A DNA stretch of 64,000 nucleotides from Malacoraja senta (lineage: Eukaryota): positions 4,714,001 to 4,778,000 of the forward strand of contig CM075990.1 of NCBI GenBank assembly GCA_038087875.1, written 5' to 3'. A model generated the notes under the pieces. The model searched no databases. It saw only the letters and a list, made by a program, of their open reading frames with translations, and was not told the origin of the DNA. Position numbers and translations under genes: made by a program. Positions within the stretch are counted from its first letter, which is position 1; every line of letters begins with the position of its first letter. Shown in pieces: positions 1 to 44,442 of the stretch.

Positions 1-8
1 TCTACTGT

Positions 9-15112: not shown

Positions 15113-15779
15113 AAATTAATGGAAGATATGCAGAAAGCAACAATAATCAAGGAAATGTGGAACCTACAATGGTACATTGTTGGCTGTGGGATAGGTGATA
15201 ACGAGCTATACTGACAGTGAAACTCAGCAGGCCAACAGTAAAACTGGTAAGATGACTGGGGTGGTGATGGGAGAGAGAGAGTTACTTGAAGTTAGAGAAA
15301 AATTCATACCGCTGGATTTTAAATAATGTGTAGGAAGGAACTGCAGATGCTAGTTTACATCGTAGACACAAAATGCTGGAATAACTCAACGGAACAGGCC
15401 TCTGGAGAAAAGGAATGGGTGACGTTTCGGGTTGAGACCCTTCTTCAGACTGAGAGTCAGGGGAGAGGGAGACTAGAGATATGGAAGTTGGAAGGGTGTG
15501 AAAATGACAGATCAAAGCAGTCGATGAGCATGGAGAGAAGGCAGGTACAGGATACTGAGTTGGATGATCAGCCATGATCATATTGAATGGCGGTGCAGGC
15601 TCGAAGGGCCGAATGGCCTACTCCTGCACCTAATTTCTATGTTTCTATGAAATGTACGATGGTTGTACAATTGTTGGCTTGGGGGGGGGGGGGGGCAAGG
15701 TGTCAACGAGGCATACAACCAGTAACATTAATCAGGAGGACAGAGAAGCTAGTCGGAGAACTAGGGTTGGGGAGGGAGT

Positions 15780-16452
15780 CCACATCTCTGAGGATATGAC
15801 ATGGACATCACACGCTGCAGCACTCGTGAGTAAGGCAAGGCAGCGCCTTTACCACCTCAGGCAATTGAGGAAATTTAGAGTGTCTCCAAGGATCCTCCAG
15901 TGCTTCTACTCAGCGGCTGTGGAAAGCATCTTGTCCGGAAATATCACTATCTGGTTTGGGAATTGCTCTGCCCAGGACAAGGCTCTGCAGAGAGTAGTGC
16001 GTTCGGCGAACGCACTATGGGAACTTCACTCGCCCCTCTGCAGGAACTATACATCAGGAGGTGCAACTCCAGAGCCAATAAGATCATGGGAAACCCCTTC
16101 CACCCCTGCAACGGACTGTTCCAGCTGCTACGGTCAGGCAAACGTCTCCGTTGCCATGCTGTGTGAACGGAGATGTTGAGGAGTTTCTTCCCAGAGGCCA
16201 TTAGGACTGTAAACTCCTATCACACCAGGGACTAACTTTACTGTACCATTCTACTGGGGTTTTTTTAATTGCTGGGTTTTTTTCCCTTTTTCCTTCCGCC
16301 CACAATATTTAATATGTAAAAGAATATGTGATTCTGTTCCATTCTGTTTATTGTTTGTTTTTTGCACAAAGTCCGCTAGCATTGTCACTTTTCATTTCAC
16401 TGCACATCTCGTATGTATGTATGTGACGAATAAACTTGACTTGACTTGACTT
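15780..16452 (+). mobile_element. Rex1/Babar-clade LINE 3' fragment
   Basis: HISEDMTWTSH...KARQRLYHLRQLRKF...FYSAAVESILSGNITIWFGNC RT C-terminus; AATAAA followed by a (CTTGA)n tail. Confidence 0.8.
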
Positions 16453-16475
16453 GGATGGAGAGAGGGAAAGCAGGG

Positions 16476-16655
16476 TTAAATGAAGTTGGATAAATCAATA
16501 TTCATACCGCGGGGGTGTAAGTGAAATACGAGGTGCTGCTGTTCCTCCAATTTGCGCTGGGCCTCACTCTGACAGCGGAGGAGGCCCAGGACAGAAAAAG
16601 GTCGGTGTGGGAATGGGAGGGGACCGGAGTTAAAGTGTTTAGCAACCGGGAGACC
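16476..16655 (-). mobile_element. Penelope-like element: GIY-YIG endonuclease C-terminal remnant
   Basis: Frameshifted minus-strand reading LPVAKHFNS..SHSHTDL..SVLGLL..QSEAQRKLEEQ..HLVF..PRGMNIDLSNF*, the PVAxHF...LxPxGLN-type end of PLE ORFs. Same end at about 15281-15315 and 44379-44440. Confidence 0.75.
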
Positions 16656-16789
16656 TTAGTATGAAAGTCTACTCCTCCGATGTCCTTCAAACCTTCACCT
16701 TGTAATATGAGTTACTAGGAGTTAAAGTGTTTGGCAACCGGGAGATCAGGTAGGTTTTGGCGGAATGATGCGGTGTTTAGGTGTTTTAA

Positions 16790-17210
16790 ATAAATAATAA
16801 TAATGTGAGCTGATAAACCTCACCGTCATGGCGTCGAGCGGGGTGGCAACGGGCTCATCACGTGACGCGCGCCGGAAAGCGCGAGCGCCGGGCTGCTGCA
16901 AAGTGTCGCGCGGACGCTGGTTGCCATGGTTTGACGGGCCGGTCGGTCGGACGGACGGACATTGCGGCTCTCACCCGCCCCTCACCCAGCTCGACAAAAT
17001 GGACAACTCGGGAACCGGCGGAGGCCTGCGAGCCGGCTTCGGCCTCTTCGGCGGCGGTGGCGGAGTAGGAGGTGGTGCGGGAGCGGCCGGCGGCTCGGTG
17101 TCAGATTATTCGCAGCCCGACCTTTCCCGTGTCCCCTGTGAGTATGACGCTGGCTAGGCCCGAGGCGCCGAGCACCAACTCGGCACCGTCTTCGTCCTCG
17201 CTTAAAGGGG
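16790..17210 (+). promoter_or_regulatory. CpG-island promoter of TIMM23
   Basis: Sharp rise in GC and CpG. TCACGTGAC E-box at 16858-16866, CCGGAA ETS core at about 16872, RFX-like GTTGCCATGG at 16920-16929. Overlaps TIMM23 exon 1. Confidence 0.75.
16999..17137 (+). CDS. TIMM23: TIMM23 exon 1
   Basis: AAAATGG start context; Gly-rich N-terminus; T|gtgagt donor. Confidence 0.9.
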
Positions 17211-20200
17211 CATGTCATTTGTAGATTAGATTAGATTTTATTTGTTGTCATTTGAATCCAGAGGTTCAAACGCAATTTGGTTTCTGCAGTCATACAAACA
17301 GGAAGAAGAACCAAGACACAACACAATTTACAGAAACATCCATCACAGCGAATTCCTCCTCACTGTGATGGAAGGCAAAGTCTTATCTCCCCTGCACTCC
17401 CCATTCTCCTCCCGATGTCAGAGTCAAAGCCCCCGGCGGGCGATGGTAAATAAGTCCCGCGGCCATGTAAACAAATAAATCAGTTATAACTGCCATTAAG
17501 TACTGGGCCTCATGGTCTTCATCCACAAGATTTCAGCATCTGCAGTTCCCCGTGTCTAGATACGCTGATGAACAGGCATGAAACATAATAAAACAATTAA
17601 TTTGACAAATTAATGAAAAAGTCTGAAGAAGGGTCTCGACCCGAAACGTCGCCTATTTCCTTCGCTCCATAGATGCTGCCTCACATATTTACAGCAAATA
17701 AGTCAGTTATAACTGCCTTTTGATCTTGACATTAAAAATACAGCTACTCACATTGGAGATAGACACAAAAAACTGGAGTAACTCAGCGGGACAGGCAGCA
17801 TCTCCGGAGAGAAGGAATGCGTGATGTTTCCGGTCGAGACCCTTCTTCAGAAGAGCAGTCTCAAAGAGAAGAGTCTCGACCCGAAACGTCACCCATTCCT
17901 TCCCTCCAGCGATGCTGCCTGTCCCGCTGAATTACTTCAGCATTTTGTATCTATCTTCGGTGTAAACCAGCATCTGTAGCTCCTTCCTGCACATTTTGGT
18001 TTGAGTAAGATAAAACTGCTTCTTTGCCTTATGTTCTTTATCTTAAAAAATACAGCAACTCACATTGGCTACGAGTAGGTTGTACATGCCCTTCAACAAT
18101 TGATGAATTTTGCTAATTGTGAATTAAGTCAAGTCAAGTGAATTTTATTTTTCACACACACATACAAGATGTGCAGTAAAATGAAAGTGGCAATGCCTGC
18201 GGATTGTGCAAAAACTACAGAACAGAATCAGTATTTACATGTTAGAATGTCATTAACTTTGTTCGTAGTTATATGGCAAAACTGTAGATTTGCCTGATAT
18301 TCATCCCTGAAGCCTGATACAAGGGAAATTACTCAAGTTTTCAAATTGAAGGTAGACAAAAATGCTGGAGAAACTCAGCGGGTGAGGCAGCATCTATGGA
18401 GCGAAGGAAATAGGTGACGTTTCGGGTCGAGACCCTTCTTCAGACTTTTTCATTAATTTTTCAAATTAATTGTTTTATTATGTTTCATGCCTGTTCATCA
18501 GCATATCTAGACATGGGGAACTGCAGATGCTGAAATCTTGTGGATGAAGACAATGAGGCCCAGTACTTAAGGGCAACTGTTCTGAGAAATTGAAGTAGAG
18601 AGGTAGTTGAGATCATTTTTGACAATCCAGCAACAACCGATTTATAATATGTATTTTTCAGAGAGGGATGGTCAGAGGTGGGGGTTTGGGATTGATGGGA
18701 TTGAGAATAAGTTGTAGATGCAGAAGTGATTTGGAACATAGTCTAAAGTAAACACAAAACCGTACACCACAGGAACAACAACATATCCCAATTTTACGAG
18801 TATGTTGCCAGGACTAGAGGGTCTGAGTTATAGGCAGAGGTTGAGTAGGCTGGGGCTCTATTCCTTGGAGCACAGGAGAATTAGAGGTGATCTTATAGAG
18901 GTATATGAGATCATGAGAGGAATAGATTGGGTAGATGCACAGAGTCTCTTGCCCAGCATAGGTGAATCGATGACCAGAGGACATAGGTTTAAGGTGAAGG
19001 GGAAAATATTTAATAGGAATCTGAGGGGTAACTTTTTCTCACAAAGTGTGGTGGATATATGGAATAAGCTGCCAGAGGAGGTAATTGAGGCGGGGATTAT
19101 CCCAACATTTAAGATGCAGTTGGACAGATACATGGATAGGACAGGTTTGGAGGGATATGGATCAAATGCTGGTAGGTGGTAATAATGTAGCTCGGACATT
19201 TGGCTGGTGTAGGCATGTTGGGTAGAAGGGGCTGTTTCCACACTATGACTTTATGGTGCAAATATCTGAATCCCTGTCCCCTGCACCAATTCCTCAGTAA
19301 TGCATTCATCAGTCCTATCCTATTGCTACCCTCATTAGCAAGTGGCAGCAATAGTATTCCAGAGATTGCCACCCTTGAGGTCTTGCATTTTAACCTTTAG
19401 CCTAGCTCCCTATATTCACTGCTTAGGACTTCATCCCATTTCCTATCTATGCCGTTTGTGCTGATGTGCACAATGACTTCTGGCTGCTCCCCCTCCCCCT
19501 TGAGAATGTTCTGCAGCTGCTCAGAGACATCCTGGACCCTGGCAAAAGGGTATAGCTGTTTTGCAGGGGAATGGCCAGAGGTGATTCCTCTCTGCCTATT
19601 CCCTTTCCTGATGGTCACCCATCTATTCTCTGTCTGTACTTGTGTGTGACCACCTCTCTAACCCCAATGTATGAAATTCATCGCTCTCCTGGACGAGCCT
19701 GAGGCCATCCAGCTGCAGCTCCAGTTCCCTAACACGGTCTTTAAGGAGCTGCACCTGAATGCACCTCCTGCAGATGCAGTCCTCAGGGACACTGGACATC
19801 TTTCTGAGTTCCCACATCCCACAGGCCGAGCACCCCAATAGCTTCCATCTCGCACACACCAGTACCAAGTTGCACTCTGAAACAATCAAAAAATATTTGT
19901 TGCTTTATAGTATTTTGCATGGTTCAATGTGATTATGGAGGAAAAAAGTCTTGGGAGGAAAGAAGTGTTGTAGAAGTTTCTATTTTTGTAAGATAAGCCT
20001 TAAGTGGATAAGTTTAATATGGAGCTGGTGCTTGAGCAATGCAGCTCAGAGCCAAGGACAAGGGTAACGTTATTGTTTTGTCGATGTGCAGCCAGAGGAA
20101 TTTTAAGTTGCATTTTCTAAAGATAATTAAGTTGCAATCGTTCTAAAGATAATTCACGGTGCAAAAGATAACTGTCTATCTTGGTTTTGATTTAATGTTT

Positions 20201-23200
20201 TGTGGGTTGCAGTAAGTATAAGTATTATTTATAGATAAAAGCCATCTCTGAATTCTTTTTAGGAAGTATTTCTTGGTAGGCATAAAGCAGAAATTCTGGG
20301 AATAGTCAGCTTATTTGATAGTTTCCACACAGAGTTTCAGAGTTTCAAATTCATGATCTTTCATTGCATCTTGGGAAAGTTGGAAATGCAACAGGTTTTG
20401 AGCAGCTGCCAAAGATGCTTCCTGTCCTTTGGTGTTTTATATTATATATATTTAATTTTTTGATTTCCACCCTCTGGAGTATTTCACTTTTGGAATGTTG
20501 ATATGCAATTCTGGAAGGTTTTGTTACTGGTCATTTTGTTTTCCAAATCCTAAGGAGTCTTTTGTACTGGTCTGGGGAGACCTGCAGTGTTTTGATTTAA
20601 ACTACCCTGTTGTGCTGCACAGTCCACTAGTTCAGAGGCTTCTCTCCTGCCTCTCTGGCTTATAATTGTTGTCAATGTTGATTTTTGCATGGTGCCACAA
20701 TTAGTTGCTTTGTGGATTAGCATTTGGATGCTACTGCTAACATCCAGGTAAGATGGACAGTAAATGCTAAATTAAACCATTTGGAGATAAAAGGCCAAAT
20801 GCCAACTTAAAAATACAAGGCCTTGGGGGCAGATGGTATCACTAATGAAGTTTTAAAACTCAACAGTGAAGGACTTTAGTCTTTAGACTTTAGAGAAAGT
20901 GCGTGGAAACAGGCCCTTCGGCCCACTGTCGCAATCGCCCCATGGAATAGCATTATCCTACACACTAGCGACGATTTACAGAAGCCAATTAAGCTACAAA
21001 CCTGTATGTCTTTGGAATGTGGTGGAAACCGGAGCATCAAATTTGAGTGGGAACTCTAATTTCACTGTACCTTAATTGGTACATGTAATAATAAACTGAC
21101 CTTGAGACCTTGAAATCTGGAGAAAACCCATGCAGTCACAAGGAGAATGTACAAACTCCATACAGACTGCAGCATCATCCACCATACATGACTGTTTTTG
21201 CCTGTTTACCAGGTTTAAACAACCCTAACATTGTATTGAACTTTTTGCCAATTTTACATTTTGTTTTGCAGGCAACCAATTGAGCATTAGTGCCAAGTAC
21301 ATTTATGATTTTGTGCAGCAAAATGGGTGTCATTAAATTCCACTCCGCAATGAGCACAAAAGCGGGTCCCTGTCTAGTACGTCGAGATGATCTGGAAACC
21401 ACTCTTGAAAAGTGAACTTTCTCAAAGGAAATGTGTGAAAGCTATGGATTCTTTAAGTGAAATGTCATTCAACAATTTCTAGGTGTGAGTGTGAAAGAAA
21501 GAAATACATGCGTTGGTGCAGAGAGGGAGGGTCAGGTTGTGCTTGAGAGGAAAAAGATAATGAATAATGTTGCTGGGACTAACTGTTGCTGTTTTGCTAC
21601 TTTCAGTGACTGGAATGAGCCCTCTGTCTCCATACCTGAACCTTGACCCTAGATATTTGATTCATGTGAGTAGAAAATGTTTTTTTGTGATATATTTTAA
21701 GCTCTGTCATGAATGGAGCGTGTTATATGTTTTATGAGTGAGACAGATAGAATAGCGTATGCTTTCATACAGGATACAGCTCAGATTAGTTTGCAGCATG
21801 GTTGTGCAATTCTCAATTCTGTATTTCATTAATTAGCTTTTATTCGGTTTTTGAAATGTGGGCAGTGCTGGGAAGACCAGCCGTTATAGTCTGTACCAGT
21901 TGGTCTTGAGAATGTGGTGCTAAGCCGCCACCTTGAAACAGTGTAATCCTTCTGGCAAAGTTGCTGTTGGGTAGGGTGGGGGTGTGGAGTTCCAACTAAA
22001 GGGAGGTGGGTATAGCTAGCTGCAGCCTCATAAGTTCATAAGTGATAGGAGCAGAATTAGGCTGTTTGGCCCATCATGTCTACTCTGCCATTCAATCATG
22101 GCTGATTTATCATTCCCTCTGAAACCCATTCTCCTGCCTTCTCCCCATAACTCCTGACACCTGTACTAATCAAGAATCTATCTATCTCTGCCTTTAAAAT
22201 ATCCATTGATTTGACCTTGTTCTCATAATCCTCTGGACCCTCTCCAGCGCCAGCACATCCTTCCTCGGAATATGGTGGCCAAAATTGCTCACAATACTCG
22301 CAGCTCCAGCGACCCGGGTACAATCCTGATCCCATTTCCATTGGAAATGAACTGCTTATCCAATGTCTCTCCTGCTAGCCACAGAGGAATGGTCTGTGTT
22401 TCATCTAAGTTGGCAATGGGAAAGTATTGGGAGGTGGAAAATACAATACAGACTTTACTTTGATGCTAATGCAAAGCGAGTGCTGTCAAATCCAGCAGTG
22501 GGAATGCCGCTGCCAAGTTTGTGAGGTTTTGTACAACTCCTTAAAACTGGGTTCAACATTTTGATGGACCCAACCTCAATTTTAATCTCCTGTGGGTTGG
22601 GTGCCAGATCGAAGCTGGCCTCAAGTGTGTTATGTCAAAAAAGCTTTCTAGTGCAATACATACCTAATTGGGTGGGCGCCATATCTTTTAAGAGAAGTTG
22701 GCTAATTCTGTTGGGTTGAGTATAAACTAGCTTAGCCGGGGATGGGAACCTGGTGACCATTGTGGAAGAGAGAGAGACAAAATTGGTTATGGAAGGTAGG
22801 GTTTAATAAATGAGTCTAGTCAGAGGTATGAGTTGGAAAGCAGAGGAAGAAAGACTGGAAGTGTTTAATTGTGTGTTTAATGCAATGCAAGAGTCATGTG
22901 AAGAGAGGCAATGAACTGAAGGCATGGAAATACTGTGGGAATATGATCTAGCCACTTCTGAAACTTGGATTAAAAATCAGTGTGGATTATAAAGTCTGAG
23001 GCAAGATGGTTTAAGGAAAAGGGGGGTCGGCAATATTGTTGAAGGAAAGTTACAGCTGTGAGATGAATGATCTGTTCCAAATCCACAAAATAAACCACAT
23101 GAGATAAGGAGAAATCATTGGGATCACCAAACAGGAAGATGAAGATGAACAATACCTATTTTTTTTCATTGTTCTGAGAAATGTAACAACAATTAGGCAG

Positions 23201-26186
23201 AAATTTCAACTACATATAACGTTATTGGGGTCATCGACAGAGTAAAAGATGTAGAAGGCACAGAATTCTTGAAATGCATTCGAGAGTATTATCTTAAATC
23301 AGAAAGCGAGGCTATGGTGCTGGGTTTAATTTTAGGTAAGCATTGGTCCTCCAAATAGATGGTAATGTTAGAGTGAAGACTATGACTTAATTAGATTATC
23401 ATAAGGATATGGTCATAATGAAGCCATGGTGAAATCGCATTTAGCACAATGCTGGTGCCGCATAACAACAAGATACATGGCCTTTGAAGAAGTAAACCTT
23501 CATGAAGGACTTTACAATATTTACTTTTGCCTATTGTGACCATATTCTTATTCAGAATGTAGATTGATGAGATCGAGATTAAGTCATTTTCCTCGATGTT
23601 ATTTCCCTTGACACCTGCAACAAATGTAGTCTGTTAGTAACCAGCTGTGTTCTTCAGGCTTCAGCCAGTTCAATAACTGATGGTACTACCAGACTGATCA
23701 TGGCATGTGTGCTACCCTGACGCAGACTAAAGCACTGCAACATAGAGTAGTACAGCACAGGAACACACCATTTTGGCCCACATGTCACTTCTGGTGCTTC
23801 TCCATGTTGAACATCACCGTGGAACATTATCTCCAATTGAGCGATGGTAGCAAACAGTCATCTACTTGATGACATGGTGTGCAATATTACACAACTTTTT
23901 TCTCCCATACCTGTCGTACTTCCGTGTATTCAATTTAAAAAAAAATCTAAACTGGTTTAGAGCATGTGAGTTGCTTGTGTACCTGGGATTTTGAGGGACA
24001 GCTTTAGTTTAAAATACTTTTGCCAAATGGTGTATGATTTTTTGTTTTGCTTATGGCCTTTTCTTGCTGGGGTAGGGGGAAAGATGGTGAGGGCAAACCT
24101 ATGTTTATTTGGAAGGAGGGAAGAGTTGTCTTTTTTTTTGTTTTTTGTGTGTGAACAAACATAACATGCCATCTAGTGCCAGAGTATTGGAACATCCGCA
24201 CAAAAGCTACAAAAATCTGGCATCCTCAGGACTTTTTAGTCTGACTGGCAGATTTTCTGGATTCTTGGAAATTATTCTTATTAGTATCCCAATGTTCTTT
24301 CAATTAATTTTTAAGATTTTGCATAGTAGTTAATACACTTTAAACCCAATGAGTTTAAAGGGAGCGCACAAAATGCCCAGCGTGCCAGGTGCTGAACCAT
24401 CCGCATTTCCGAATATCGTGGATTATCAATTTTGCGGTAATGGCCTTGTGATAGCCATTTCATCTCACAGTTTGGTTGATCTTAGTTCTTTCTGTTGTTT
24501 CCATAGCATGTCCATCACTGTATTCAATTAGATTCTAATTAAAATCAATGCAGCTGCATGCACTGCTATTTGGTAGATATCTAAATGCATATTGTTGCTA
24601 CGCAAATGGTGGATAATTGTCTCATTATGTCTACGACAGATCCCAACAGATCTTTTCACTGTACGTCAGTACACGTGACAATAAACTAAATTGAACTTTT
24701 CCATTCTCCTGCTCTTTGCATCAGAGCCCCACGACTAATTTTTCTTGAAATACGTATCCAATTTTCTTGAAGTTGTTGATCAATTCTATACCCGCTAAAT
24801 CTACAGTCACTGTATTTCAGATCACAACTACTGATGAAAATGACTTAAATCTGGCATTTTCAACACATTGATGCTGGGAGGGATGTTATGTCGGCATTGT
24901 GGCAGATCAGAGAGAGATGCATCATAAGATTATATAAAAACGAATTCTCATTTTTGCTTCTCTTTTTCAGGATAATGATGAATTTATATTACCAACAGGA
25001 GCAAATAAGACCAGAGGAAGATTTGAACTGGCATTTTTTACAATTGGTGGCTGCTGTATGACTGGTATGTTTGGATTTTGTCATTAGAATAATCATGCCG
25101 TGCAAATTAAAGTTTAATAGACTCTCAATTTCACTGGTAGATGAGACCTTACAAGCAAGTTAAGATCCAGAATTGAGAGATTGGTGGTGGTGGGAGGTGA
25201 TTGAGGGGTGACAAACTCAATATTGTTGAGTTAGAACATAGAAGACTTTGATCAAATTGGACCTTTATTGAAACTAAGAGGTTCATGGTACATTGAGAGA
25301 ACAATGGTATACTTGTGTGAGAATGCCTGGTAGATATTTAGTTTACTTGATGTTACTTGATCTGGAGCTGTGTTACTTGGTCAGTTACAATAGTTAATCT
25401 CATTCTTAATCTCCCAAACAAGAAGTCAAGGGAGGCACGGTGGTGCAGCAGTAGAGTTGCTGCCTTACAGTGCTTGCAGCGCCGAAGACCCGGGTTCGAT
25501 TCCGACTGCGGGCGCTATCCGTACACAGTTTGCTTTCTCCCCGTGACCGCGTGAGTTTTCTCCGAGATCTTCGGTTTCCTCCCACACTCCAAAGACATAC
25601 AGGTTTGTAGGTTAATTGGCTTGGTATAAGTGTAAAATTGTCCCTAGTATGTGTAGGATAGCGCTAATGTGCGGGGATCACTGGTTGGTGCGGACTCGGT
25701 GGGCCGAAGGGCCTGTTTCCACGCTGTATCTTTAAACCAAACTAGTAATTTAATCTATGCAGATAATTCATTTTGCAACATTTCCTACTGACTAATAGTA
25801 AGTTTAATTGGAGGTGTCAGGATGGCTCCTCATTTAGTTAATATTTAGGGTTACATACTGACTCCTTAATGTGGAAATGTATGCATCAGTAAAACAACAG
25901 ATGAATGTTTTTTCATTGAATCTAACTATTTGAATGGAGCATGTAACACGGCTTGCTCGCCAGTATTAAGACTAATTCATCATGTGTCTATAATTCACTT
26001 CATATACATGTTATTAATTGAGAATTTGCACCGGTTTCTTCAGGAAAAAGTCAGTCGTTCTTTTTTAAACCTGGAATTTTCTGTATATTTTGTTTCGTCA
26101 GGTGCTGCTATTGGTGCAGTAAATGGCTTGCGTCTGGGCTTGAAGGAAACTCGGGATATGAATTGGTCAAAACCTAGAAATGTCCA
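16999..26186 (+). CDS. TIMM23: Mitochondrial import inner membrane translocase subunit Tim23, exons 1-4 only; join(16999..17137,21607..21665,24971..25064,26102..26186); 3' part absent from the window
   Basis: Spliced translation MDNSG...DYSQPDLSRVPL TGMSPLSPYLNLDPRYLIH DNDEFILPTGANKTRGRFELAFFTIGGCCMT GAAIGAVNGLRLGLKETRDMNWSKPRNV(Q) matches vertebrate Tim23. GT-AG introns with consistent phases. Confidence 0.95.
17623..17650 (+). ncRNA. Minimal type I hammerhead ribozyme motif in a Penelope-like terminal repeat
   Basis: CTGAAGA-A-GGGTC tc GACCC-GAAAC-GTC. Intact minus-strand copies at 15421-15448, 18416-18443, 30107-30134 and 44162-44189. Confidence 0.6.
17757..17993. mobile_element. Palindromic (inverted pair) Penelope-type terminal repeat
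   Basis: gacacaaaaaactggagtaactcagcgggacaggcagcatc...gacccttcttcaga followed by its reverse complement. Similar pairs at about 11515-11720, 12080-12305, 33475-33692, 35050-35170 and 43823-43975. Confidence 0.7.
18792..19250 (+). mobile_element. CR1 LINE 3' fragment
   Basis: ORF 18802-19182 MLPGLEGLSY...[20 protein letters not shown]...TRGH...WNKLP. Confidence 0.9.
19253..19860 (-). mobile_element. CR1 ORF1 remnant (zinc finger/leucine zipper plus SGNH esterase-like domain)
   Basis: Minus-strand pieces CSACGMW..CICRRCIQVQLLKDRVRELELQL, RVQDVSEQLQNILKGEGEQPEVIVHISTN and ISGIL..NALLRNWCRGQGFRYL. Confidence 0.75.
20878..21175 (-). mobile_element. Interrupted SINE
   Basis: (ctttaga)n tail, ggaaacaggcccttcggccc and core sequence. 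Confidence 0.6.
21607..21665 (+). CDS. TIMM23: TIMM23 exon 2
   Basis: tactttcag acceptor; TGMSPLSPYLNLDPRYLIH; gtgagt donor. Confidence 0.95.
22030..22290 (-). mobile_element. CR1 3' fragment
   Basis: cataagtgataggagcagaattagg... tail; minus-strand KAEIDRFLISTGVRSYGEKAG. Confidence 0.7.
24971..25064 (+). CDS. TIMM23: TIMM23 exon 3
   Basis: tctttttcag acceptor; DNDEFILPTGANKTRGRFELAFFTIGGCCMT; G|gtatgt donor. Confidence 0.96.
25434..25744 (+). mobile_element. HE1/V-SINE-type element, near full length
   Basis: GGCACGGTGGTGCAGCAGTAGAG...GGTTCGATTCC...GGGCCGAAGGGCCTGTTTCC...tail. Confidence 0.85.
26102..26186 (+). CDS. TIMM23: TIMM23 exon 4
   Basis: tttcgtcag acceptor; AAIGAVNGLRLGLKETRDMNWSKPRNV; CA|gtgagt donor. 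Confidence 0.95.
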
Positions 26187-29140: not shown

Positions 29141-31456
29141 CAGGGCTCTCGCTTAACTTTTTTTCCCTGTTGCCAGCCGGGCAACCTTGGCAGCTTTTTA
29201 GGTTGCCAAATGACAGTTTAGGTGGTCATTTAAGATGGCTTGCATGACGCGTGCGATAATGTGCTTGGACGAAGTGCGTAGTTACCAGTCGGAATTATAC
29301 TCAATGAAGCATTCACATATTATTTCTGCTTCAAAAAAAGTCACAAACTAAACATATTCACCAATCAAGACATGATATATCCCACAATGACATGCAGCAA
29401 AATTATAAGGCAGTATCTCAACTCTTTTTACACATTGCAATTAATGCAATTTCTATTAGTTCTTTCCACTTCCACTTCCAAACAAAAATGTGGTTCGATT
29501 ATTCAGCATATGATCAACCTGTGTCAATAAATCCTGGTCCATGGTAACATATATGCGTACGTATAGTTGTGAATGTTGTTCATTAAATAACTACAGTACT
29601 GATATTCCATATTAAGAGCATTGATTTGCTGTTAAAATGAATTCTGTAATAACGTGTCAACGGCAGCAGTGACAATCGAACACTGCGGTTTTAATGTTTC
29701 ACGTGTTCACAATTTAATTAATCCATCTTTATGGATTAAAACAAATAATAACATTGAGAATTAAAAAAAATGTGATTGCATTCCGTTATCAAACATAGTC
29801 AATGTTCGCTCTGAAGACATTTCCAGCACAATAGGGTCAGGGAGGGGTGTGTGTGAATCAGTGCGGGGTGGATAGATGGCGGGGGGGGGGGGGGGAGGGG
29901 AGTTGGAAGGCAGTCGGTGCAGAATGGATGGATTGAGGCAGGTGAATTAGTACGTTTTGGTTGGAGTAGGTAAAATTGTGAGGGGAGAGCACCGGGGATG
30001 TCAGTGGTGTTGAATGGGGGGTTCAGTACGGGATGGATGGGGGTAGACAAAAGTGCTGGAGAAACTCAGCGGGTGAGGCAGCATCTATGGAGCGAAGGAA
30101 ATAGGCAACGTTTCGGGTCAAGACCCTTCTTCAGACTGTTCCCCCCATTCTTCTTGAATGGGAGGATCAGTACAGGATGGATGGGGGGTGGGGAGATCAG
30201 CGCAGGATGAATGGGGGGGAGTCAGTACAGTGTGGATCGGAGGGTCTGTGCAGGATGAATGGGCGATCATTACAGGATGAATGAGGGGAAGGTGCAGGGT
30301 AAATGGAGGGTGGGTCAGTATGGGATGAATGCGTGGATTAGTACAGGATGGATGGGGGATCAGTACAGGATGGATGGAGGAGAAGTGCAGGATGGATGGG
30401 AAAGGGGTAAGTACAGATTGAATTGGGGAACGAGTGTAGGATGTATGGGGGGGGGGGTGTGGCAGGAGAATGAATGCGAGGTGGATAGGGTGATCAGCGC
30501 AGGATGAATAGATGGGGGGGTAGATGGGGAGGGGAGCACAGGGGATGTCAGTGAGGACTGAATAGAGGTGGGAATGGGGATCAGTGCGGGATGGAGTGGA
30601 GGGGTCCCAGGATTAATGGGGGGGGGGTGGAGGGGGCGTACAAGAGAGAGAGAGAGAGGGAGAGGGAGCTAGGTGGGGCGGAAGGAAGGTCAGCGCTCCT
30701 CGGACAACATCGCTCCGCTGCCTTGGCCGTTGGGAACTCCTCGCCACCGCCTCCTCCGCCAGCCGACAGCAAGGTGCGGGGCCGGGCGGTGCAGCTCAGA
30801 GATCGTATAGCTATAGGATCTTTGGTGCAGCTGCTTCAGACGTGACGTTTCGTGTTGGCGGCTGTTGTGCGGGGCAAAGATACTAGGTGCGGGGTGTCGA
30901 AGGGTCGGAGCGAATGACGGGTCCCGCACAGCGGCCGCGACAGCGGCTCCATCTCCTCCTCCTCCCGCCCCCCGCCCGCCCTGATAAGGGCCTCTGCTTG
31001 TAAATCCGCTAACGGGCTTTCAAAACAAACTCTCCCGCACTCCGAGGCTTCCCCCTCCCTCCCTCCTCCCGGCCTGGGAGTGCGGGAGAGTTTGTTTGAA
31101 AGCGGTTATCGCCGTTAGCGGGTTTACAAGCAGAGGCCCTTCTCAGGGCGGGCGAGGGGCGGGAGGAGGAGGCGGTGGCGCTGCTGCCGCTGTTCGGGGC
31201 CCGTCATTCGCTCCGACCCTTCCTCACCCCGCACCTAGTATCTTTGCCCCGCACAGCCGCCGCCGACACAAAACGTCACGTTCCTTTTCTCCAGAGATGC
31301 TGCCTGACCTGCGGAGTTACTCCAGTTTTTTGTGTCTATCTTCGGTACAAACCAGTATCTGGTTGCCAAGCCGGGCAAAATGACTCGGTGTTTAGGTTGC
31401 CCGGCGGCGCTTTGAGTGGTCAGTGGCACCCGGGCAACCGCTAATTTCGAGCCCTG
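29141..31456. mobile_element. Non-autonomous DNA transposon with CAGGGCTC termini and 5-bp TSD (hAT5-like)
   Basis: CAGGGCTC at 29141 and GAGCCCTG ending at 31456; subterminal GTTGCC/GGCAAC motifs at both ends; TSD TATAC at 29136-29140 and 31457-31461; interrupts a PLE 3' UTR. Confidence 0.75.
29850..30620 (+). repeat. Degenerate G-rich minisatellite (about 20-24 nt, GGATCAGTACAGGATGGATGGG-like) inside the DNA transposon
   Basis: Many recurring cagtacaggatggatggg and cagcgcaggatgaat units; a nested PLE fragment at 30044-30136. Confidence 0.75.
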
Positions 31457-32283: not shown

Positions 32284-32483
32284 NNNNNNNNNNNNNNNNN
32301 NNNNNNNNNNNNNNNNNNNNNNNNNNNNNNNNNNNNNNNNNNNNNNNNNNNNNNNNNNNNNNNNNNNNNNNNNNNNNNNNNNNNNNNNNNNNNNNNNNNN
32401 NNNNNNNNNNNNNNNNNNNNNNNNNNNNNNNNNNNNNNNNNNNNNNNNNNNNNNNNNNNNNNNNNNNNNNNNNNNNNNNNNNN
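32284..32483. other. Assembly gap (200 N)
   Basis: Run of exactly 200 N, a fixed-size scaffolding placeholder. Confidence 0.99.
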
Positions 32484-33010: not shown

Positions 33011-33808
33011 TGATCACATTCCTGTCTTGTCTCCATTTCATAGACCAATACAGCACCAGAACAGGCCCTTCGGCCCACAGTGTCTGTGCTGAACATCAGA
33101 ATCAGATTCTATTCGCCAAGTATGTTTTGCAACATACGAGGAATTTCACTGGCCAGGTCAGTCATACAATTAAAAACAACAGACTCAAAAACACATTTTA
33201 ACATGAACATCCACCACAGTGACTCCTACACATTCCTCACTGTGATGGAAGGCGAAATAAAGTTCGTCCTTCCCTTGCGTTCTTCCTTGGTCGGGGGCCT
33301 CGAGCCCCCGTTAACGGGATGATCTTGACTCCCGTAGCCGGCGGTGTTCTGGCCCTCCCCGTCGAGGCGTTCAGCTCCAGCATCGGGGGGTTGTCAGCTC
33401 CCCGCGCCGGGCGATCAAACCTCGCGTCGGGGCTGGTCGAGCCTTCTGCGGCGTTGGAGCTCCCGACTTGCCTCAAAATGTTGGCGTAACTCAGCGGGTC
33501 AGGCAGCATCTCTGAAGAGATGGAATGGGTGACGTTTTAGATCGAGACCTTTCTTCGGACCTTTCTCCACCCGAAACATCACCCATTCTTTCATAACCTT
33601 CTCTCCAGAGATGCTACCTGGCCCGCCGAGTTACTCCAGGAATTTGTGTCTATCATCTGTGTAAACCAGCATCTGCAGTTCCTTCCTACACATATCCCTC
33701 CATACCCTGCATACCCATCCATAGTCCTGTCCAAACGCCTTTTAAATGGCACTAATGCAACCACGAACCCTGGCAGCGCGTTCTAGGCACTCACCCCCCT
33801 CTGTGTAT

Positions 33809-34694: not shown

Positions 34695-35198
34695 ATAAAA
34701 ACTTGCCCCGCACACCTCCTTTAAACTTTGCCCCTCTCACCTCATTTCGTTGCCTCCGAGGACAGGCTCCGCCCACGTCATTTTCCGTGCCATCTGGCGC
34801 CCTATCATAAGTGATAGGAGCATAATTAGGCCATTCGTCCCATCGAGTCTACTCCGCCAATCAATCATGGCTGGTCTATCTTTCCCTCTCAACCCCATTC
34901 TTCTGTCTTCTTCCCGTAACCTTTGACAACCCTTACCAATCAAGTATCTGTCGATTTCTGCTTTAAAAATACTTTGATTGCATTTGTTCCCACTTGTCCC
35001 ACAGGTGTCTCCACCTTGGTACCAAAACAAGATGCAGAGCTACCAGAGATAGATACAAAGTGCTGGAGTAACTCAACGAGTCAGACAGCATCTCTGGAGA
35101 AAAAGGATGGGTGACGTTTGGGTCAGGAGCCTTGTTCAGACTGCCTGACCCGCTGAGTTACTCCAGTATGTGTCTAACTTCAGCATGAACCAGCAGTG

Positions 35199-35505: not shown

Positions 35506-35924
35506 ATGTTATTCCTCCTGCACAATGCATGGCCACCGGACTGACTGCACATGCGAGTTTCATACGTGTGCTGACACGTTAGATGGACATCATGTTGGCC
35601 CCTCCATCACACATATCAATCACACGCATTATCTGTACCTACACGACATGCACATACCATCCTGAAACACCAGACCAACACTGACACTCACATTGTACTG
35701 GCATATAACACTGCAGGAGTACGTGTTGTGGGACTAGCTGAACCTCGGTGCAGCCAACGCCAAAGCTCTGTGGGTGAGGACCTCAGTCTAGGGTCCTCCT
35801 GCTGCAGGACATTGAGGGGCACTGACACCGACATTATACTGATATATACCACTGCCACCAACATGCACATACACCTGATCACACTGACACAAGGAAGCAC
35901 TCACATACCAGAAGATGCACCTTT

Positions 35925-36400
35925 ATTTTCTATTTGCAAGAATAAACTTTATTTAGAATAAAAGATGTATACAGAACATCTCCAAAACAGGAACAGTACA
36001 AAACTCCTCAGACGTTCCAGTGTCTGTACATTCATTAGTGTCGTATGTGTTAGTGTTCACAACTACTCTGAATCCAAGCACCATGCTACTTCCCTTGTTT
36101 GAGGTGTGTCTCCACAATATCCCGCAGTGGGAGGACCCTAGACTGTGGTCGTCCCCGACAGAGCCTTGGCGTTGGCTGCACCGAGCTTCAGTGCGTTCCT
36201 CAGCACGTACCCCTGCTGTCTGGAGCGGGCCAGTCGGCTGGGAGGTCATTGAATTTCGGGCAGACCAAAGAGCGTCTTCAACCGAGTCAATGATCTTCAG
36301 CAGCACATGATGTCTGACTCCAAATGTGCCCCTGGGAATATTGCACTGACGTACACCATGATGCCATGTTCAGTCTGTTCCCCCACAATGGACTGGAGGA
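35925..36400 (-). mobile_element. Tx1-type L1-clade LINE 3' fragment (short inverted piece at about 35710-35820)
   Basis: Minus-strand LKIIDSVEDALWSARN and a decayed YVLR-ALKLGAANAKAL-type terminus; AATAAA and A-rich tail on the minus strand at about 35925-35953. Confidence 0.6.
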
Positions 36401-39966: not shown

Positions 39967-40189
39967 AGTGGAATAACAATGCTTACACATGAGAGAAAGA
40001 CACAAAATGCTTGGATAACTTAGCGGGTCAGGCTGTGTCTCTGGAGAGAAGGAATGAATAGGTGATGTTTTGGGTCGAGACGCATCATCAGACTGCTTAC
40101 ACATAATTCTTACACTGTTCATAATGCTTACACATAATTGACTGTGTCTCTTTTTGTTGATTCTCCTCACCACAGAGCGCCCATTCACC

Positions 40190-41983
40190 ATGGCCAAGTA
40201 CAATCGAAGGTTATCTGACAACGCCTTCCAGGTAAAGCAGGACATAGTGCACCGTAATACTTTGGAACCAGAATGCTTCCTGCTTTCAAAGAGCTCCTCT
40301 GACACCCTGTTTCCTCGGAAGGAAGAAAGGCAAATGACTAATCCACATTTGAGGAAAACTATCGGCAGCGTTGCCTCTCTGATGAACGCAGAAATGGGCA
40401 CGGGGTACCAGTGTCAGTCGTCGTGTTTCATGCCACGTAAGAACTTCACTATCGTCCCCTTGTGTGGCTGCTTCCAAATGGAATCCATCCCAGATCCCAC
40501 CCGGGTCTCGGAATGGGCAAAGCTTCAGGAGAATACAAAACTCCACGTCAACAGTCACACGAACAGCAGCTCAGACTTAACAAGGGACGCAGAGACGCTG
40601 TTATACAAAGACGCACATTTGGGGGTACTGCAAACCAAGTTGGTGTACAGGAGTTGCTCAGACATCATGTATGGTTACAGGGAGAACTGCTGCCAGGACA
40701 ATATAGCACACAGGCAGACCACGGCAAAACATCGAGTTACTGTGCCTGAGCCTGGTGCAACTCCTCATGGTGAAATGATAACTAAAGATTCTGATCAAAG
40801 GATAGTGATAAATATTTCAAGGGGTGAGACTGACAATGAACATCATGAAGCCATGGGAGGTAGTCCAATCACTCCTGGACATCAAGTGAAGAACACAGTT
40901 AATGTCTGCACTCCCATGCATCAGTGCCACTTCATGTTTACAGAGAGTTCCCACAGTTACCCAGGTATCGTGATTGTCCAAGAGTCTGGCAGGCAATGTC
41001 CAGATAATTGTATGAAAGGAGATGGGACCGTCACCAGGGATCGGGATGAGGCGGCATCTATGGAAGGAGATGGTTCAACGAGCAATCACAATTGTACTGG
41101 ACATCAAAGCCGTGTGATACCTGGCCTGAACATAGAAGAAACCGCGCCAGCTTTGTGCCATCCACTGCCAATCCCAGCCATTCATCTCATGCCGCGGCTG
41201 GTCAGTTCTGTCAGTGAGTCTGGAAGGGGAGACGGCAATGCATTTTGCCATTCGCTGCCAGTTTCTGGCATTCTGCCATTCCCACGCTTGGTGTCTTCAG
41301 TGAGTGAATCCGGTTTGGACACAAGGCATCTTCGGAAATGCCATGGAACCCCGGGAAATAATGTGGTCCCCACTGCGACTGGCGGAATCCCTCAGAATAC
41401 TTCAGATGCAATGAAAGCGGGACTGGATGATCCTTCTTATTCTTGTCAGCAAAATAGTCCAAATACTAACCTGGATGTGAGAACACGAGATATGTTCACT
41501 ATGACTTCTATAAGGGATCTGACCCTTGGCTGTCACTATCGACTGAAGCAGAAAGACGCAGAGGTGCAGACGTCATTTACAGCTGACTACAAGTCGGTGG
41601 GCACCAGCCCAATGTTTCCAACTGATTGCTGCTTGGCCCATTCCTTCCCAGAAGTTAACTTTGAGGAGATTCAGAAGTCCCCGGTCTGCGAAGTGAAGTG
41701 GGATGACAAAGGGATGACGTGGGAAGTCTATGGGGCCTCTGTCGACCCGGAGGTCCTCGGGCTGGCCATACAGAAACATCTGGAGATTCAGATCGAGCAA
41801 CATGAAAAGGACAGAGTAACCACAGCTGAGAAGACAGTGAGGCATTCGGATCCTCAGTTGGACGCCGCATGCGTGCTGGAACATCCACCAAAGGAGAAGA
41901 GACATTTGCCAGGTTTTAGGAAGATGCTGTCCACACTGAGGCATCCCACCTGTTGTGTGAGACCCACTGCAGTAATAGACTAA
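40190..41983 (+). CDS. GPRIN2: G protein-regulated inducer of neurite outgrowth 2 (single coding exon, 597 aa)
   Basis: ACCATGG Kozak start after a splice acceptor (ttctcctcaccacag ending at 40175). C-terminal GRIN domain SPVCEVKWDDKGMTWEVYGASVDPEVLGLAIQKHLEIQ and terminal RHPTCC. GPRIN2-type CHxLP...FPRLVSSVSESG motif. TIMM23 neighbourhood as on human 10q11. Confidence 0.9.
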   Translation: MAKYNRRLSDNAFQVKQDIVHRNTLEPECFLLSKSSSDTLFPRKEERQMTNPHLRKTIGSVASLMNAEMGTGYQCQSSCFMPRKNFTIVPLCGCFQMESIPDPTRVSEWAKLQENTKLHVNSHTNSSSDLTRDAETLLYKDAHLGVLQTKLVYRSCSDIMYGYRENCCQDNIAHRQTTAKHRVTVPEPGATPHGEMITKDSDQRIVINISRGETDNEHHEAMGGSPITPGHQVKNTVNVCTPMHQCHFMFTESSHSYPGIVIVQESGRQCPDNCMKGDGTVTRDRDEAASMEGDGSTSNHNCTGHQSRVIPGLNIEETAPALCHPLPIPAIHLMPRLVSSVSESGRGDGNAFCHSLPVSGILPFPRLVSSVSESGLDTRHLRKCHGTPGNNVVPTATGGIPQNTSDAMKAGLDDPSYSCQQNSPNTNLDVRTRDMFTMTSIRDLTLGCHYRLKQKDAEVQTSFTADYKSVGTSPMFPTDCCLAHSFPEVNFEEIQKSPVCEVKWDDKGMTWEVYGASVDPEVLGLAIQKHLEIQIEQHEKDRVTTAEKTVRHSDPQLDAACVLEHPPKEKRHLPGFRKMLSTLRHPTCCVRPTAVID

Positions 41984-42158: not shown

Positions 42159-42164
42159 AATAAA
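42159..42164 (+). terminator. Candidate proximal polyA signal of GPRIN2
   Basis: AATAAA about 175 nt after the stop codon. Confidence 0.35.
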
Positions 42165-42230
42165 TAGTTTTCCTTTCGAGATATTTATGGGAGTAGCTGA
42201 TTCAGAAGTTGTGCAGCTTTCAGAAATTAT

Positions 42231-43150
42231 AGGTTGAGGTACTGAGATGGGTGTAGGAAAGGAGGGGGGGGAGTACGTGTGTGAGCCTGGTGCGGGTTGT
42301 TCAGGTGGATTAAAATGGCAAGTGATGCTGCGGTAAGATTATTGTGGCAGGGACCAAAGGGTGCCCTGGATGCGATGTTTCTAGGTATCGTGCTTTTCAA
42401 GTTTGTCGTTTTGGTGCTGTGAAAGAATAGTAATCTTGGACGAATGACTGATCTTTGCAAAGATATGGTGATGTGAGGCGGTTAGTTGCTGTAACACATG
42501 ACATCTAAATCCTCTTCTTTTCGTGTCCATCTTGTCACAAATGTTGGTCTCGCCGTCATCGTCCGTCCTGAAAAGGACGCAAGCTTCCAGCGACAATCAG
42601 TGGAAGCCATCACTTGTCGCCACGGATGATGGTGGTAGCGGAATTAGCTCAGGATAGCGACGTGGACGCCTTCTGCTATGGGGCCGGAAATCTAAATGAT
42701 TAATAGTAAATCTTGAAATAAACAAGACATCTGGGATGGGGGAGGAGAAAACTAACAATCCCATAGAATGATGGCGTTATACATCAACGAAGGGCAATTC
42801 ACTCTAAACATCACTGGAACTTTGGTAGAGATTCCCATTCACTCCTACACCAACGTCCTTTCCCACAGTCATAATTTTAGTTTTTTTTTTAATATACGTT
42901 TATCTAACACTTCATTGAAGATCACTAATGAATCAATTATCACCAGCGTTTAAGACAGAGCATTCACTGCGTAAAATAATATTTCCTCAGGTCACCTCAG
43001 GAAATTATATTTTTTATTATGTTTATCCAACTCTTTCAATTAAGGTTACTAATGAATTTACTATCACCCACCTTTGAGATGGAAGCATTCACCACGTAAA
43101 ATAATATTTCCTCAGGTCACCTCAGGATCTTAAATTTTGGTTGTTGACCT
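42231..43150. mobile_element. Possible non-autonomous DNA transposon (AGGT...ACCT ends, AT flanks)
   Basis: AT|AGGTTGA at the left and TTGACCT|AT at the right; CpG-rich interior; decayed THAP-like wording on the minus strand; internal tandem duplication of about 120 bp (42899-43127). Confidence 0.35.
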
Positions 43151-43380
43151 ATAGAAACATAGAAACATAGAAAATAGGTGCAGGAGTAGGCCATTCGGCC
43201 CTTTGAGCCTGCACCGCCATTCAATATGATCATGGCTGATCCGCCAACTCAGTATCCCGTACCTGTCTTCTCTCCATACCCCCTGATCCCTTTAGCCACA
43301 AGGCCACATCTAACTCCCTCTTAATGAACTGGCCTCAACTACTTTCTGTGGCAGAGAATTTCACAGATTCACCACTCTGT
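43151..43380 (-). mobile_element. CR1 3' tail fragment
   Basis: (atagaaac)n tail followed by aaaataggtgcaggagtaggccattcggccc. Confidence 0.75.
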
Positions 43381-44057
43381 CACTGGAAACAAAGGGCCTG
43401 TTTCCACGCTGTATCTCTAAACTAAATTAAACCTGTCAAATGTGTCCTAATCAGCTTCGTCAGCCACTCTACATTATTGAAATCCCTCTTAAACGTAGGA
43501 AATAGAAACAGGAATAGGCCATTCAGCCCTTCAAGCCAGCACCGCCATTCAATATGATCATGGCTGATCATCCAAAATCAGTACCCCGTTCCTGCTTTCT
43601 CCCCATATCCTTGATTCCGTCAGACCTGAGAGCTAAGAGCAAACAGTCATCTCTAATAAATCTGCCCTGTGCTCATATTAAGGCCTTGGTATCTGTACTA
43701 AAGTGTGGTAGTAAGAATTAAACTTAAAATTCCCAGAAGGGAACACTGTTTTATAATAACTTTCCAATTGCATTATATTAAGACTTAATATTTGCAAATA
43801 TTAAGTGGGTTTGTAGGTAAGATAGACACAAAATGCTGGAGTAACTCAGCAGGTCAGGCAGCATCTCTGGAGAAAAGGAATAGATGATGTTTCGGGTCGG
43901 AGGAAGGATTCTGACCTGAAACGTCACCAATTCCTTTTCTCCACTGATGCTGCTTGACCCTCTGGGTTACTCCAGCATCATCCAGCACTCCCTCCAATCC
44001 ATCTTCTGTATAAACCAACGTCTGCATTTCCTTCCTTCACATTGGGTTTGTTGGTAA

Positions 44058-44442
44058 GTGTGTAGGAAGGAACTGCAGATGCTGGTTTAAACCGAAGATA
44101 GACACAAAAAGCTGGAGTAACTCAGCGGGACAGGCAGCGTCTCTGGAGAGAGGGAATGGGTGACGTTTCGGGTCGAGACCCTTCTTCAGACTAGTTAGGG
44201 ATAAGGGAAAGGAGAGAAATAGACAATGATGTAGAGAGATAAAGCACAATGAATGAAAGATTTGCAAAAAAGTAATGATGGTAAAGGAAACAGGCCGTTG
44301 TTAGCAGTTTGTTGGGTGAAAACGAGAAGTTGGTGCGACTTGGTTGGGGGAGGGGTGGAGAGAGAGGGAATGCCGGGGTTACTTGAAGTTAGATAAATCA
44401 ATATTCATACCACTGGGCAGTAAGCCGCCGAAGCAAAATATA
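44058..44442 (-). mobile_element. Penelope-like element 3' end (ORF end, 3' UTR and hammerhead-bearing terminal repeat)
   Basis: Contiguous on the minus strand: ..GGLLPSGMNIDLSNFK*, pyrimidine-rich UTR, CTGAAGA..GAAACGTC, terminal repeat. Confidence 0.75.

What the first reader, a model, noticed from the sequence alone, without database searches (positions are those of the whole stretch)
15421..44189. The most abundant repeat here is a Penelope-like terminal repeat carrying a minimal hammerhead ribozyme
Seen: the motif CTGAAGA-A-GGGTC(tc)GACCC-GAAAC-GTC/GTT is essentially intact at 17623-17650 (+) and at 15421-15448, 18416-18443, 30107-30134 and 44162-44189 (-). Many decayed copies exist (about 2790, 8520, 11620, 13395, 14090, 27870, 31840, 33530, 35110, 40070). 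At 44058-44442 and 15327-16655 it lies downstream of a GIY-YIG-type ORF end (PVAKHFNS...RKLEEQ...GMNID). Established: the hammerhead core is CUGANGA-helix II-GAAA-helix III-UH, and Penelope-like elements are known to carry minimal type I hammerheads with helix III reduced to a palindrome (here ACGU) thought to pair in dimers. Inference: this SINE-looking elasmobranch repeat spreads self-cleaving motifs through introns; the copy at 17623 is sense within TIMM23 pre-mRNA. Helix I is only about 2-3 bp, so monomer activity is uncertain.
Basis: partly seen in the sequence, partly recalled or inferred. Interest (0 to 1): 0.7.

Follow-up and report, generated by a model that had tools for sequence, protein, structure and literature searches.

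The report
Penelope retroelement ends carrying minimal hammerheads
The commonest repeat in this stretch of skate-like DNA is the short end-piece of a Penelope-like jumping gene bearing the already described minimal hammerhead RNA motif; most copies here are decayed and nothing suggests they cut host transcripts, so the catch is right but ordinary.

Summary
Observation confirmed. Five copies fit a strict minimal-hammerhead descriptor (shuffles: mean 0.02); 32 pieces lie in the non-duplicated window. They match the published consensus of Penelope-like-element (PLE) hammerheads (Cervera 2014): bulged A after A9, G10.1-C11.1, palindromic CG. Helix II is 4 bp plus a YUCG loop; helix I only 2 bp. 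Three copies follow a GIY-YIG ORF end whose shark relatives carry RT, a Neptune-type Zn-finger linker and GIY-YIG. The copies show PLE hallmarks: two 3' ends about 35 nt apart (the "tail"), six head-to-head pairs, AT-rich flanks. 15 of 28 pieces begin at the hammerhead's 5' edge and none at the cleavage site, so templates were uncleaved RNA; my best guess is run-off cDNA from a start site just before the ribozyme. Against host function: catalytic G12 decays as a CpG (9 of 22), the intronic sense copy at 17623 is predicted locked in a 194-bp duplex with its antisense twin, and only TIMM23 exons 1-4 lie in the window. No RT, full-length element or cleavage was shown here. The kind is published, and this scan noted it before in other shark and ray genomes.

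The parts
44162..44189 (-). Intact minimal type I hammerhead (C3 at 44189, cleavage nucleotide C17 at 44162), in the longest uninterrupted 3'-end copy
44058..44192 (-). The ~135-nt repeat unit: hammerhead plus ~65 nt plus tail; 5' edge 44191-44192 matches the pile of loose ends in four runs
44059..44094 (-). Optional ~35-nt tail between the two 3' end points (44094/44095 and 44059/44060)
   Evidence: PLE tail defined in PMC11167929
44193..44378 (-). Pyrimidine-rich 3' UTR part of the pseudo-LTR, ending in YAG just before the hammerhead; absent from most copies
44379..44441 (-). Last 20 codons and stop of the PLE ORF
   Evidence: tblastn with P0001, 68% over 19 aa, E 0.002
16479..16652 (-). C-terminal 58 aa of a GIY-YIG endonuclease of a PLE (decayed), preceded by a short duplicated piece at 16718-16792
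15327..15530 (-). 3' UTR end, intact-core hammerhead (15421-15448) and tail belonging to the 16652 ORF end, separated from it by two inserted retroelement pieces
13987..15316 (-). Second PLE 3' end (ORF end at 15281-15316, decayed hammerhead at about 14085-14113, tail ending 13987), head-to-tail behind the first and split by an L1-type insertion with a 14-bp target duplication
17623..17650 (+). Intact hammerhead, sense in TIMM23 intron 1; lies in the left arm (17491-17684) of a 194-nt, 97% inverted repeat
18416..18443 (-). Intact hammerhead, antisense twin in the right arm (18382-18575)
30107..30134 (-). Intact hammerhead (GUU site) at the start of a tail-less short copy (30043-30137)
17749..17993 (.). 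Head-to-head pair: tail-less minus arm (core kept, G10.1-C11.1 and palindrome broken) and tailed plus arm (CUGA lost)
33468..33692 (.). Head-to-head pair, tail on the plus arm only
43808..44041 (.). Head-to-head pair, tail on the plus arm only
11522..12302 (.). Two older head-to-head pairs (11522-11719 and 12091-12302), tail on the minus arm
35041..35196 (.). Head-to-head pair with a 5'-truncated plus arm
16999..26186 (+). Host gene context: TIMM23 exons 1-4 (16999-17137, 21607-21665, 24971-25064, 26102-26186); exons for residues 127-220 not found in the window

Best explanation
The repeat is the pseudo-LTR end of an endonuclease-positive, probably Neptune-type, Penelope-like retroelement of skates and rays, carrying the known minimal type I hammerhead. 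Shown: motif, link to a GIY-YIG ORF end, two 3' end points, head-to-head pairs, sharp 5' edge at the ribozyme. Inferred: the element's RT/endonuclease nicks AT-rich DNA and starts reverse transcription inside the RNA at one of two sites about 98 and 134 nt downstream of the ribozyme's 5' edge (as shown for the anole element). When it starts in the upstream pseudo-LTR it runs off the 5' end of the uncleaved RNA, which probably begins at an initiator-like site 3 nt before C3, giving the many ~98-nt and ~134-nt copies; priming from both nicked strands gives head-to-head pairs with the tail on one arm; starting in the downstream pseudo-LTR gives the rarer long 5'-truncated copies with UTR and ORF end. 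The hammerhead was kept by selection on the active elements (probably dimer- or protein-assisted cutting of element RNA); inserted copies decay neutrally and are not expected to cut host pre-mRNA.
For: Strict motif 5 vs 0.02 by chance; fits the published consensus and its three non-descriptor features. ORF end 51-63% identical to skate, ray and whale-shark proteins, whose longer relatives from zebra and bamboo shark and from unnamed sets have RT, CxxxxCxxC linker and GIY-YIG. 15 of 28 pieces start at seed 247-258 (C3 = 254), 0 of 28 within 10 nt of the cleavage site. In contigs of four runs (one of the window's organism code, three of other organism codes) loose ends pile at 44059/60, 44094/95 and 44191/92, and flanks beyond the tail are AT-rich. 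Six head-to-head pairs, five with the tail on one arm only, as described for PLEs (PMC3846280; PMC8557442). Helix I/II pairs covary more than shuffles (score 0.280, 0 of 500; 7 double changes, 2 of 500); core A/T positions differ in 9 of 158 cells against 74 of 471 outside; G12, in a CpG, differs in 9 of 22. Uncleaved RNA is the main template for the anole PLE (PMC11167929).
Against: No RT and no full-length element in the window; no whole genome held; collection scans found no locus linking RT to this motif. Rfam finds no hammerhead at E<=1. Core G/C positions outside CpG are no better kept than other G/C positions (11 of 67 vs 89 of 520), and the copies are related, so the covariation and conservation counts are not independent events; DNA hairpin repair can also make paired changes. 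The 5' pile at 44192 is partly caused by the query having T where 81% of X1 depth has C at 44193 and by other subfamilies diverging upstream, so the edge is uncertain by a few bases. The start-site idea rests on a recalled initiator consensus matched after the fact; contigs cannot show RNA starts. Clade assignment rests on the linker motif, with no tree.
Confidence: 0.78

Rival explanations
1. The short unit is itself a non-autonomous mini-element (SINE-like or retrozyme-like): about 134 nt with an internal promoter, the hammerhead and the RT start sites, copied in trans by the PLE protein from its own transcripts.
For: Short copies outnumber long ones (15 of 28 pieces start at the ribozyme; summed contig depth 10- to 50-fold higher over the unit than upstream in X1). 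All five pieces of one subfamily (13291, 17618, 18340, 27864, 30043) are short. Head-to-tail unit joints 44192 to 44059 in 74 X1 contigs (letters between not known). Animal retrozymes are proposed to be pLTR derivatives (bioRxiv 10.64898/2026.07.22.740005).
Against: The short copies are in the same sequence subfamilies as the long ones where both are seen; no tandem array of units in the window; run-off cDNA from the autonomous mRNA explains the same ends without a second element. Contig depth is not a copy number.
Confidence: 0.2
2. The sharp 5' edge is a 3' splice site: a pseudo-LTR intron ends at helix I, as in Drosophila virilis Penelope, and short copies come from spliced RNA or from RT dropping off at the junction.
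For: Pyrimidine tract and YAG directly before the motif in the long copies at 44190 and 15449; CAG is the majority form in all four runs; a GT donor-like site overlaps the ORF stop 192 nt upstream, and joining the two keeps an open frame through the unit; the D. virilis intron ends at helix I (PMC4209133; PMC2377424).
Against: No exact joint 44190 to 44383 among the 15 of 434 joints shown; one RNA-guess contig skips 44189 to 44376 with unknown letters between. Loose ends at 44192 share no common upstream exon (agreement 0.33-0.40). A U-rich stretch upstream is part of the published motif consensus anyway.
Confidence: 0.2
3. Genomic copies are active ribozymes that cut host pre-mRNAs (for example TIMM23 intron 1), perhaps in a half-dimer with a neighbouring copy.
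For: 17623 is intact and sense in intron 1; a second sense copy at about 17867-17890 keeps the ACGUC site 240 nt away.
Against: 17623 is predicted fully paired with 18416 (probability about 1.0, helix II 0.000) and 17867 sits in its own hairpin; helix I 2 bp, predicted probability <=0.002 in all five copies; same-strand intact copies are 3-14 kb apart; CpG-rate loss of G12; eight of nine Xenopus retrozyme dimers did not cleave in vitro.
Confidence: 0.05
4. An unrelated SINE whose 5' end resembles a hammerhead by chance.
For: No Rfam hammerhead match; monomer folds are no more stable than shuffles.
Against: Three independent links to a GIY-YIG ORF end, tail, head-to-head pairs, exact fit to published features.
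Confidence: 0.02

Closest known systems
Minimal hammerheads (min-HHR) in pseudo-LTRs of metazoan Penelope-like elements (Cervera and De la Pena 2014, PMC4209133)
   Same: CUGANGAH, G10.1-C11.1, GAAA, palindromic 15.2-16.2, NUH; U-rich upstream; mostly solo copies; pairs 100-700 bp apart on opposite strands; downstream of a PLE endonuclease end.
   Different: No cartilaginous fish among the rows of its Fig. S3 or Table S1 as read; helix II here is short (4 bp) and helix I only 2 bp (2-bp helix I also in its Drosophila, Culex and Oikopleura rows).
Poseidon element of Anolis carolinensis (PAc; Frangieh et al. 2024, PMC11167929)
   Same: Two 3' end points 30-40 nt apart some 80-120 nt past the hammerhead; AT-rich target with ATT (tail ends read ACA-TT or ACA-T in 5 of 8 window copies); no copy ends at the cleavage site.
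   Different: Poseidon clade; relatives here carry the Zn-finger linker typical of Neptune/Nematis. PAc starts its ORF in stem II; the ORF start of this family was not found. No biochemistry here.
Neptune-clade PLEs (Craig et al. 2021, PMC8557442)
   Same: RT, CX2-5CxxC linker, C-terminal GIY-YIG in shark relatives; pLTR, tail, inverted truncated copies.
   Different: Only the last 58 aa are in the window; no phylogeny run, Nematis not excluded.
Animal non-LTR retrozymes (bioRxiv 10.64898/2026.07.22.740005)
   Same: Non-coding type I hammerhead units related to pLTRs; reported from one chondrichthyan genome.
   Different: Defined as tandem arrays with a complete hammerhead in each unit; the window holds dispersed monomers and inverted pairs.

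Membership tests
Minimal type I hammerhead of PLEs | Core CUGANGA ... GAAA ... NUH in type I order | tested here: met
   5 of 32 pieces
Minimal type I hammerhead of PLEs | Extra nucleotide between A9 and 10.1; G10.1-C11.1; palindromic 15.2-16.2 | tested here: met
   A, G-C and CG in all five intact copies
Minimal type I hammerhead of PLEs | Helix II with compensatory changes | tested here: met
   4 of 4 pairs show a double change among 20 copies; related, decayed sequences, so modest weight
Minimal type I hammerhead of PLEs | Helix I of about 2-5 bp | tested here: inconclusive
   2 bp then an A-C mismatch; predicted probability <=0.002
Minimal type I hammerhead of PLEs | Self-cleavage as dimer or with protein help | not testable with these tools
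   only contigs were available
EN+ Penelope-like element | C-terminal GIY-YIG endonuclease upstream of the pLTR | tested here: met
   58-aa end matches proteins with Pfam GIY-YIG (weak, E 1e-3 to 7e-5)
EN+ Penelope-like element | RT and endonuclease in one ORF | tested here: inconclusive
   met in relatives P0012, P0014, P0015; no RT in the window
EN+ Penelope-like element | Optional 30-40-nt tail | tested here: met
   ends at 44094/95 and 44059/60
EN+ Penelope-like element | Partial tandem and head-to-head inverted arrangements | tested here: met
   tandem at 15327/15316; six inverted pairs
EN+ Penelope-like element | Full-length copy flanked by two pLTRs | not testable with these tools
   no genome held; scans empty
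Neptune clade | CX2-5CxxC linker between RT and endonuclease | tested here: met
   in relatives P0001, P0011-P0015; not in the window itself
Neptune clade | Placement in an RT phylogeny | not tested
   no reference PLE set at hand
Non-LTR retrozyme | Head-to-tail tandem units each with a complete hammerhead | tested here: not met
   none in the window; head-to-tail joints exist elsewhere in the genome with unknown letters between

The most novel reading that the evidence does not exclude
The ~134-nt unit is a self-sufficient mini-retroelement: transcription starts 3 nt before the hammerhead's C3, so the ribozyme sits at the very 5' end of the RNA (cutting would remove a 31-nt capped leader), and the same short RNA holds both internal RT start sites, so the PLE protein copies it end to end. 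It would be among the smallest ribozyme-bearing mobile units in a vertebrate and would explain why hammerhead motifs reach very high numbers in sharks and rays.
Probability: 0.2. Interest if true: 0.5.

Novelty: new member of a known kind. Interest (0 to 1): 0.2.

Why it matters
As it stands it extends a 2014 result to a skate-like genome and is useful mainly for repeat annotation: a repeat that looks like a SINE is a PLE end. The one point of mechanistic use is the geometry of the copies: they begin at the hammerhead's 5' edge, not at its cut site, which fits the anole result that uncut RNA is the template and makes the open question of what PLE hammerheads are for testable with a very abundant family (RNA start mapping, cleavage with and without the element's protein).

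Tried and rejected
Whole-genome census: no genome held. Rfam at E<=1: no hammerhead family, only hairpin-driven microRNA matches. Word-based protein search with the 58-aa fragment: nothing; the HMMER search found 10 proteins, one of them (P0007) a repetitive false hit. Motif scans of viral, metagenome and prokaryote collections: 0 loci, as expected for a fish repeat. Sequencing runs: no RNA holder listed; only contigs, so RNA starts, strand and cleavage ends could not be seen; most rows of its tables were not shown (81 differences, 419 joints, 1495 loose ends). Monomer folding: no more stable than shuffles (z -0.01 to 0.95); a two-copy cofold did not give the double-hammerhead, which such programs model poorly. 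TIMM23 by PDB and Atlas: nothing; identified by homology search instead. TIMM23 exons 5-7: not found. A downstream-promoter-element match at +28 to +32 was considered (4 of 5 to a recalled consensus) and dropped, since those letters are fixed by the ribozyme. Literature for hammerheads in cartilaginous fishes: searches showed no paper on this family; the 2026 preprint includes one chondrichthyan, but its supplements are closed, and file 1 of the 2014 supplement was not searched, so prior description of this very family is not excluded; Repbase and Dfam could not be checked.
Full report
Observation. The five motifs are present at the stated places and strands. A strict minimal-hammerhead descriptor returns exactly these five, against a mean of 0.02 and a maximum of 1 in 300 dinucleotide shuffles; a loose core-only pattern is near chance (7 vs 2.9). 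Bases 1-11255 are repeated at 52705-64000 at 98.4% identity, so three further pieces are not independent. By copy number this is the commonest repeat family. Rfam gives no hammerhead match at E<=1.

The motif. It reads CUGAAGA, a bulged A, a 4-bp helix II (GGGU/ACCC) with a CUCG or UUCG loop, GAAA, CG, then UC or UU. [quoted passage not shown] Helix I is 2 bp followed by an A-C mismatch in all five intact copies, with predicted probability <=0.002; helix II forms with probability 0.01-0.55 in local context. On 20 of the 32 pieces (those covering the whole core), the six pairs of helices I and II show 7 double changes (2 of 500 shuffles reach this) and a covariation score of 0.280 (0 of 500); these copies are related and decayed, so the weight is modest. 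Over 23 copies, core A/T positions differ from the majority in 9 of 158 cells against 74 of 471 elsewhere in the first 60 nt, core G/C positions outside CpG are not better kept (11 of 67 vs 89 of 520), and G12, which lies in a CpG, differs in 9 of 22. I read this as conservation among the source elements and neutral decay after insertion (inference).

Link to a PLE. The 58-aa frame at 16479-16652 (minus) matches 10 proteins among 1.84 billion representatives; nine are 51-63% identical and the named ones come from little skate, Rhinoraja and whale shark. Searching with the skate protein returned zebra-shark and bamboo-shark proteins and three unnamed ones with RT, a CxxxxCxxC linker and GIY-YIG, the layout of Neptune-type PLEs (PMC8557442, passages read). 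tblastn finds ORF ends at 16482-16694, 16718-16792 and 44382-44441 but no RT in the window; a third ORF end is visible at 15281-15316. The 16652 end reaches its hammerhead at 15448 across two inserted retroelement pieces, and is followed head-to-tail by a second 3' end (15316 to 13987) split by an L1-type insertion with a 14-bp target duplication. 44058-44442 is uninterrupted.

Copy geometry. Of 28 pieces found with the 44058-44442 copy as query, 15 begin at seed positions 247-258 (C3 is 254), 6 begin earlier, 7 later, and none within 10 nt of the cleavage site at 281. 3' ends fall near seed 345 or 384. Twelve pieces form six head-to-head pairs, five with the tail on one arm only. Contigs of four runs laid on 44045-44480 (323,362 pieces in X1) show the same: loose ends pile at 44059/60, 44094/95 and 44191/92; summed depth in X1 is 2.2-7.0e7 over the unit and 0.3-3.7e6 upstream; flanks past the tail are AT-rich; joints include tail-to-tail-less ends on opposite strands and head-to-tail units. 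Depth is not a copy number, most table rows were hidden, and the pile at 44192 is partly due to the query's own base at 44193 and to subfamilies with other upstream sequence. These are PLE hallmarks: the tail is the stretch between two internal RT start sites, the target is AT-rich, both strands are cut and extended, and uncut RNA is the main template (PMC11167929, parts 1-2 of 4 read); head-to-head pLTRs with a tail on one arm and an initiator-like site in the pLTR are described for rotifer PLEs (PMC3846280, passages).

How it most likely works. Shown: motif, ORF link, two 3' ends, sharp 5' edge, inverted pairs. Inferred: RT starts at either internal site; in the upstream pLTR it runs off the RNA's 5' end and leaves a ~98- or ~134-nt copy; in the downstream pLTR it gives longer truncated copies. 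The letters before C3 in the majority form (TCAGT then C) fit a recalled initiator consensus with +1 at 44192; such a hexamer occurs at 0.15% of window positions, but the match is after the fact. The same letters are also a 3' splice site behind a pyrimidine tract, and the D. virilis Penelope intron ends at helix I (PMC2377424, passages); a donor-like site at the ORF stop would give a 192-nt intron and an open frame, but no exact joint was among the 15 of 434 shown. A self-copying mini-element remains possible.

Host context. TIMM23 exons 1-4 lie at 16999-26186 on the plus strand, so 17623 is sense in intron 1. But it sits in a 194-nt, 97% inverted repeat with the 18416 copy; folding 17470-18600 pairs every tested motif base with the twin at probability about 1.0 and leaves helix II at 0.000. 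Exons for residues 127-220 were not found, so the gene is partial in this window. Published monomers did not cleave and dimers cleaved weakly; the anole ribozyme needed its protein; eight of nine Xenopus dimers did not cleave (bioRxiv 10.64898/2026.07.22.740005, parts 1-3 of 5 read). An effect on host RNA is unlikely but untested.

Novelty. The kind was described in 2014. I saw no cartilaginous fish in that paper's alignment or table, and searches showed no paper on this family, but the 2026 preprint reports hammerhead repeats from one chondrichthyan (supplements closed). Unchecked notes of this scan report the same thing in other shark and ray genomes. Verdict: new member of a known kind, interest 0.2; the mini-element reading, probability 0.2, would deserve 0.5.

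Noticed in passing
1-11255 and 52705-64000: Direct duplication at 98.4% identity containing a trypsin-family (elastase/chymotrypsin-like) gene; with TIMM23 lacking exons 5-7 and a 200-N gap at 32284-32483, this may be a segmental duplication or a haplotype misjoin.
   Followed up: partly
17491-17684 and 18382-18575: 194-nt inverted duplicate made of about 130 nt of flank plus the hammerhead and 34 nt; the left copy is framed by a near-perfect 23-bp direct repeat (17474-17496, 17695-17717), as if a local antisense transcript had been copied back by the element's RT or by a DNA template switch.
   Followed up: partly
40142-41983 (+): Single-exon 613-aa ORF with a GRIN_C domain (GPRIN-family gene).
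   Followed up: no
about 16810-16840 (-): Possible first exon of a divergent gene (ATG followed by a GT donor) in the GC-rich stretch upstream of TIMM23; if real, the minus-strand copies at 13291-16790 would be sense in its intron. No further exon was sought properly.
   Followed up: no
16654-16792 (-): The PVAKHFNS-coding stretch occurs twice, about 100 nt apart, with unrelated sequence between: a small internal duplication or nested insertion at the 5' end of the truncated PLE.
   Followed up: no
33994-34521, 35710-36219, 30840-31281, 11267-11579: Several near-perfect inverted repeats of 108-146 nt; the first gives the spurious Rfam microRNA hits. Some may be MITE-like elements.
   Followed up: no
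proteins P0001, P0002: Predicted skate proteins end in this PLE's endonuclease C-terminus fused to host domains (DUF4518; a neuromedin-U receptor), probably gene-model artefacts or exonised PLE ends.
   Followed up: no
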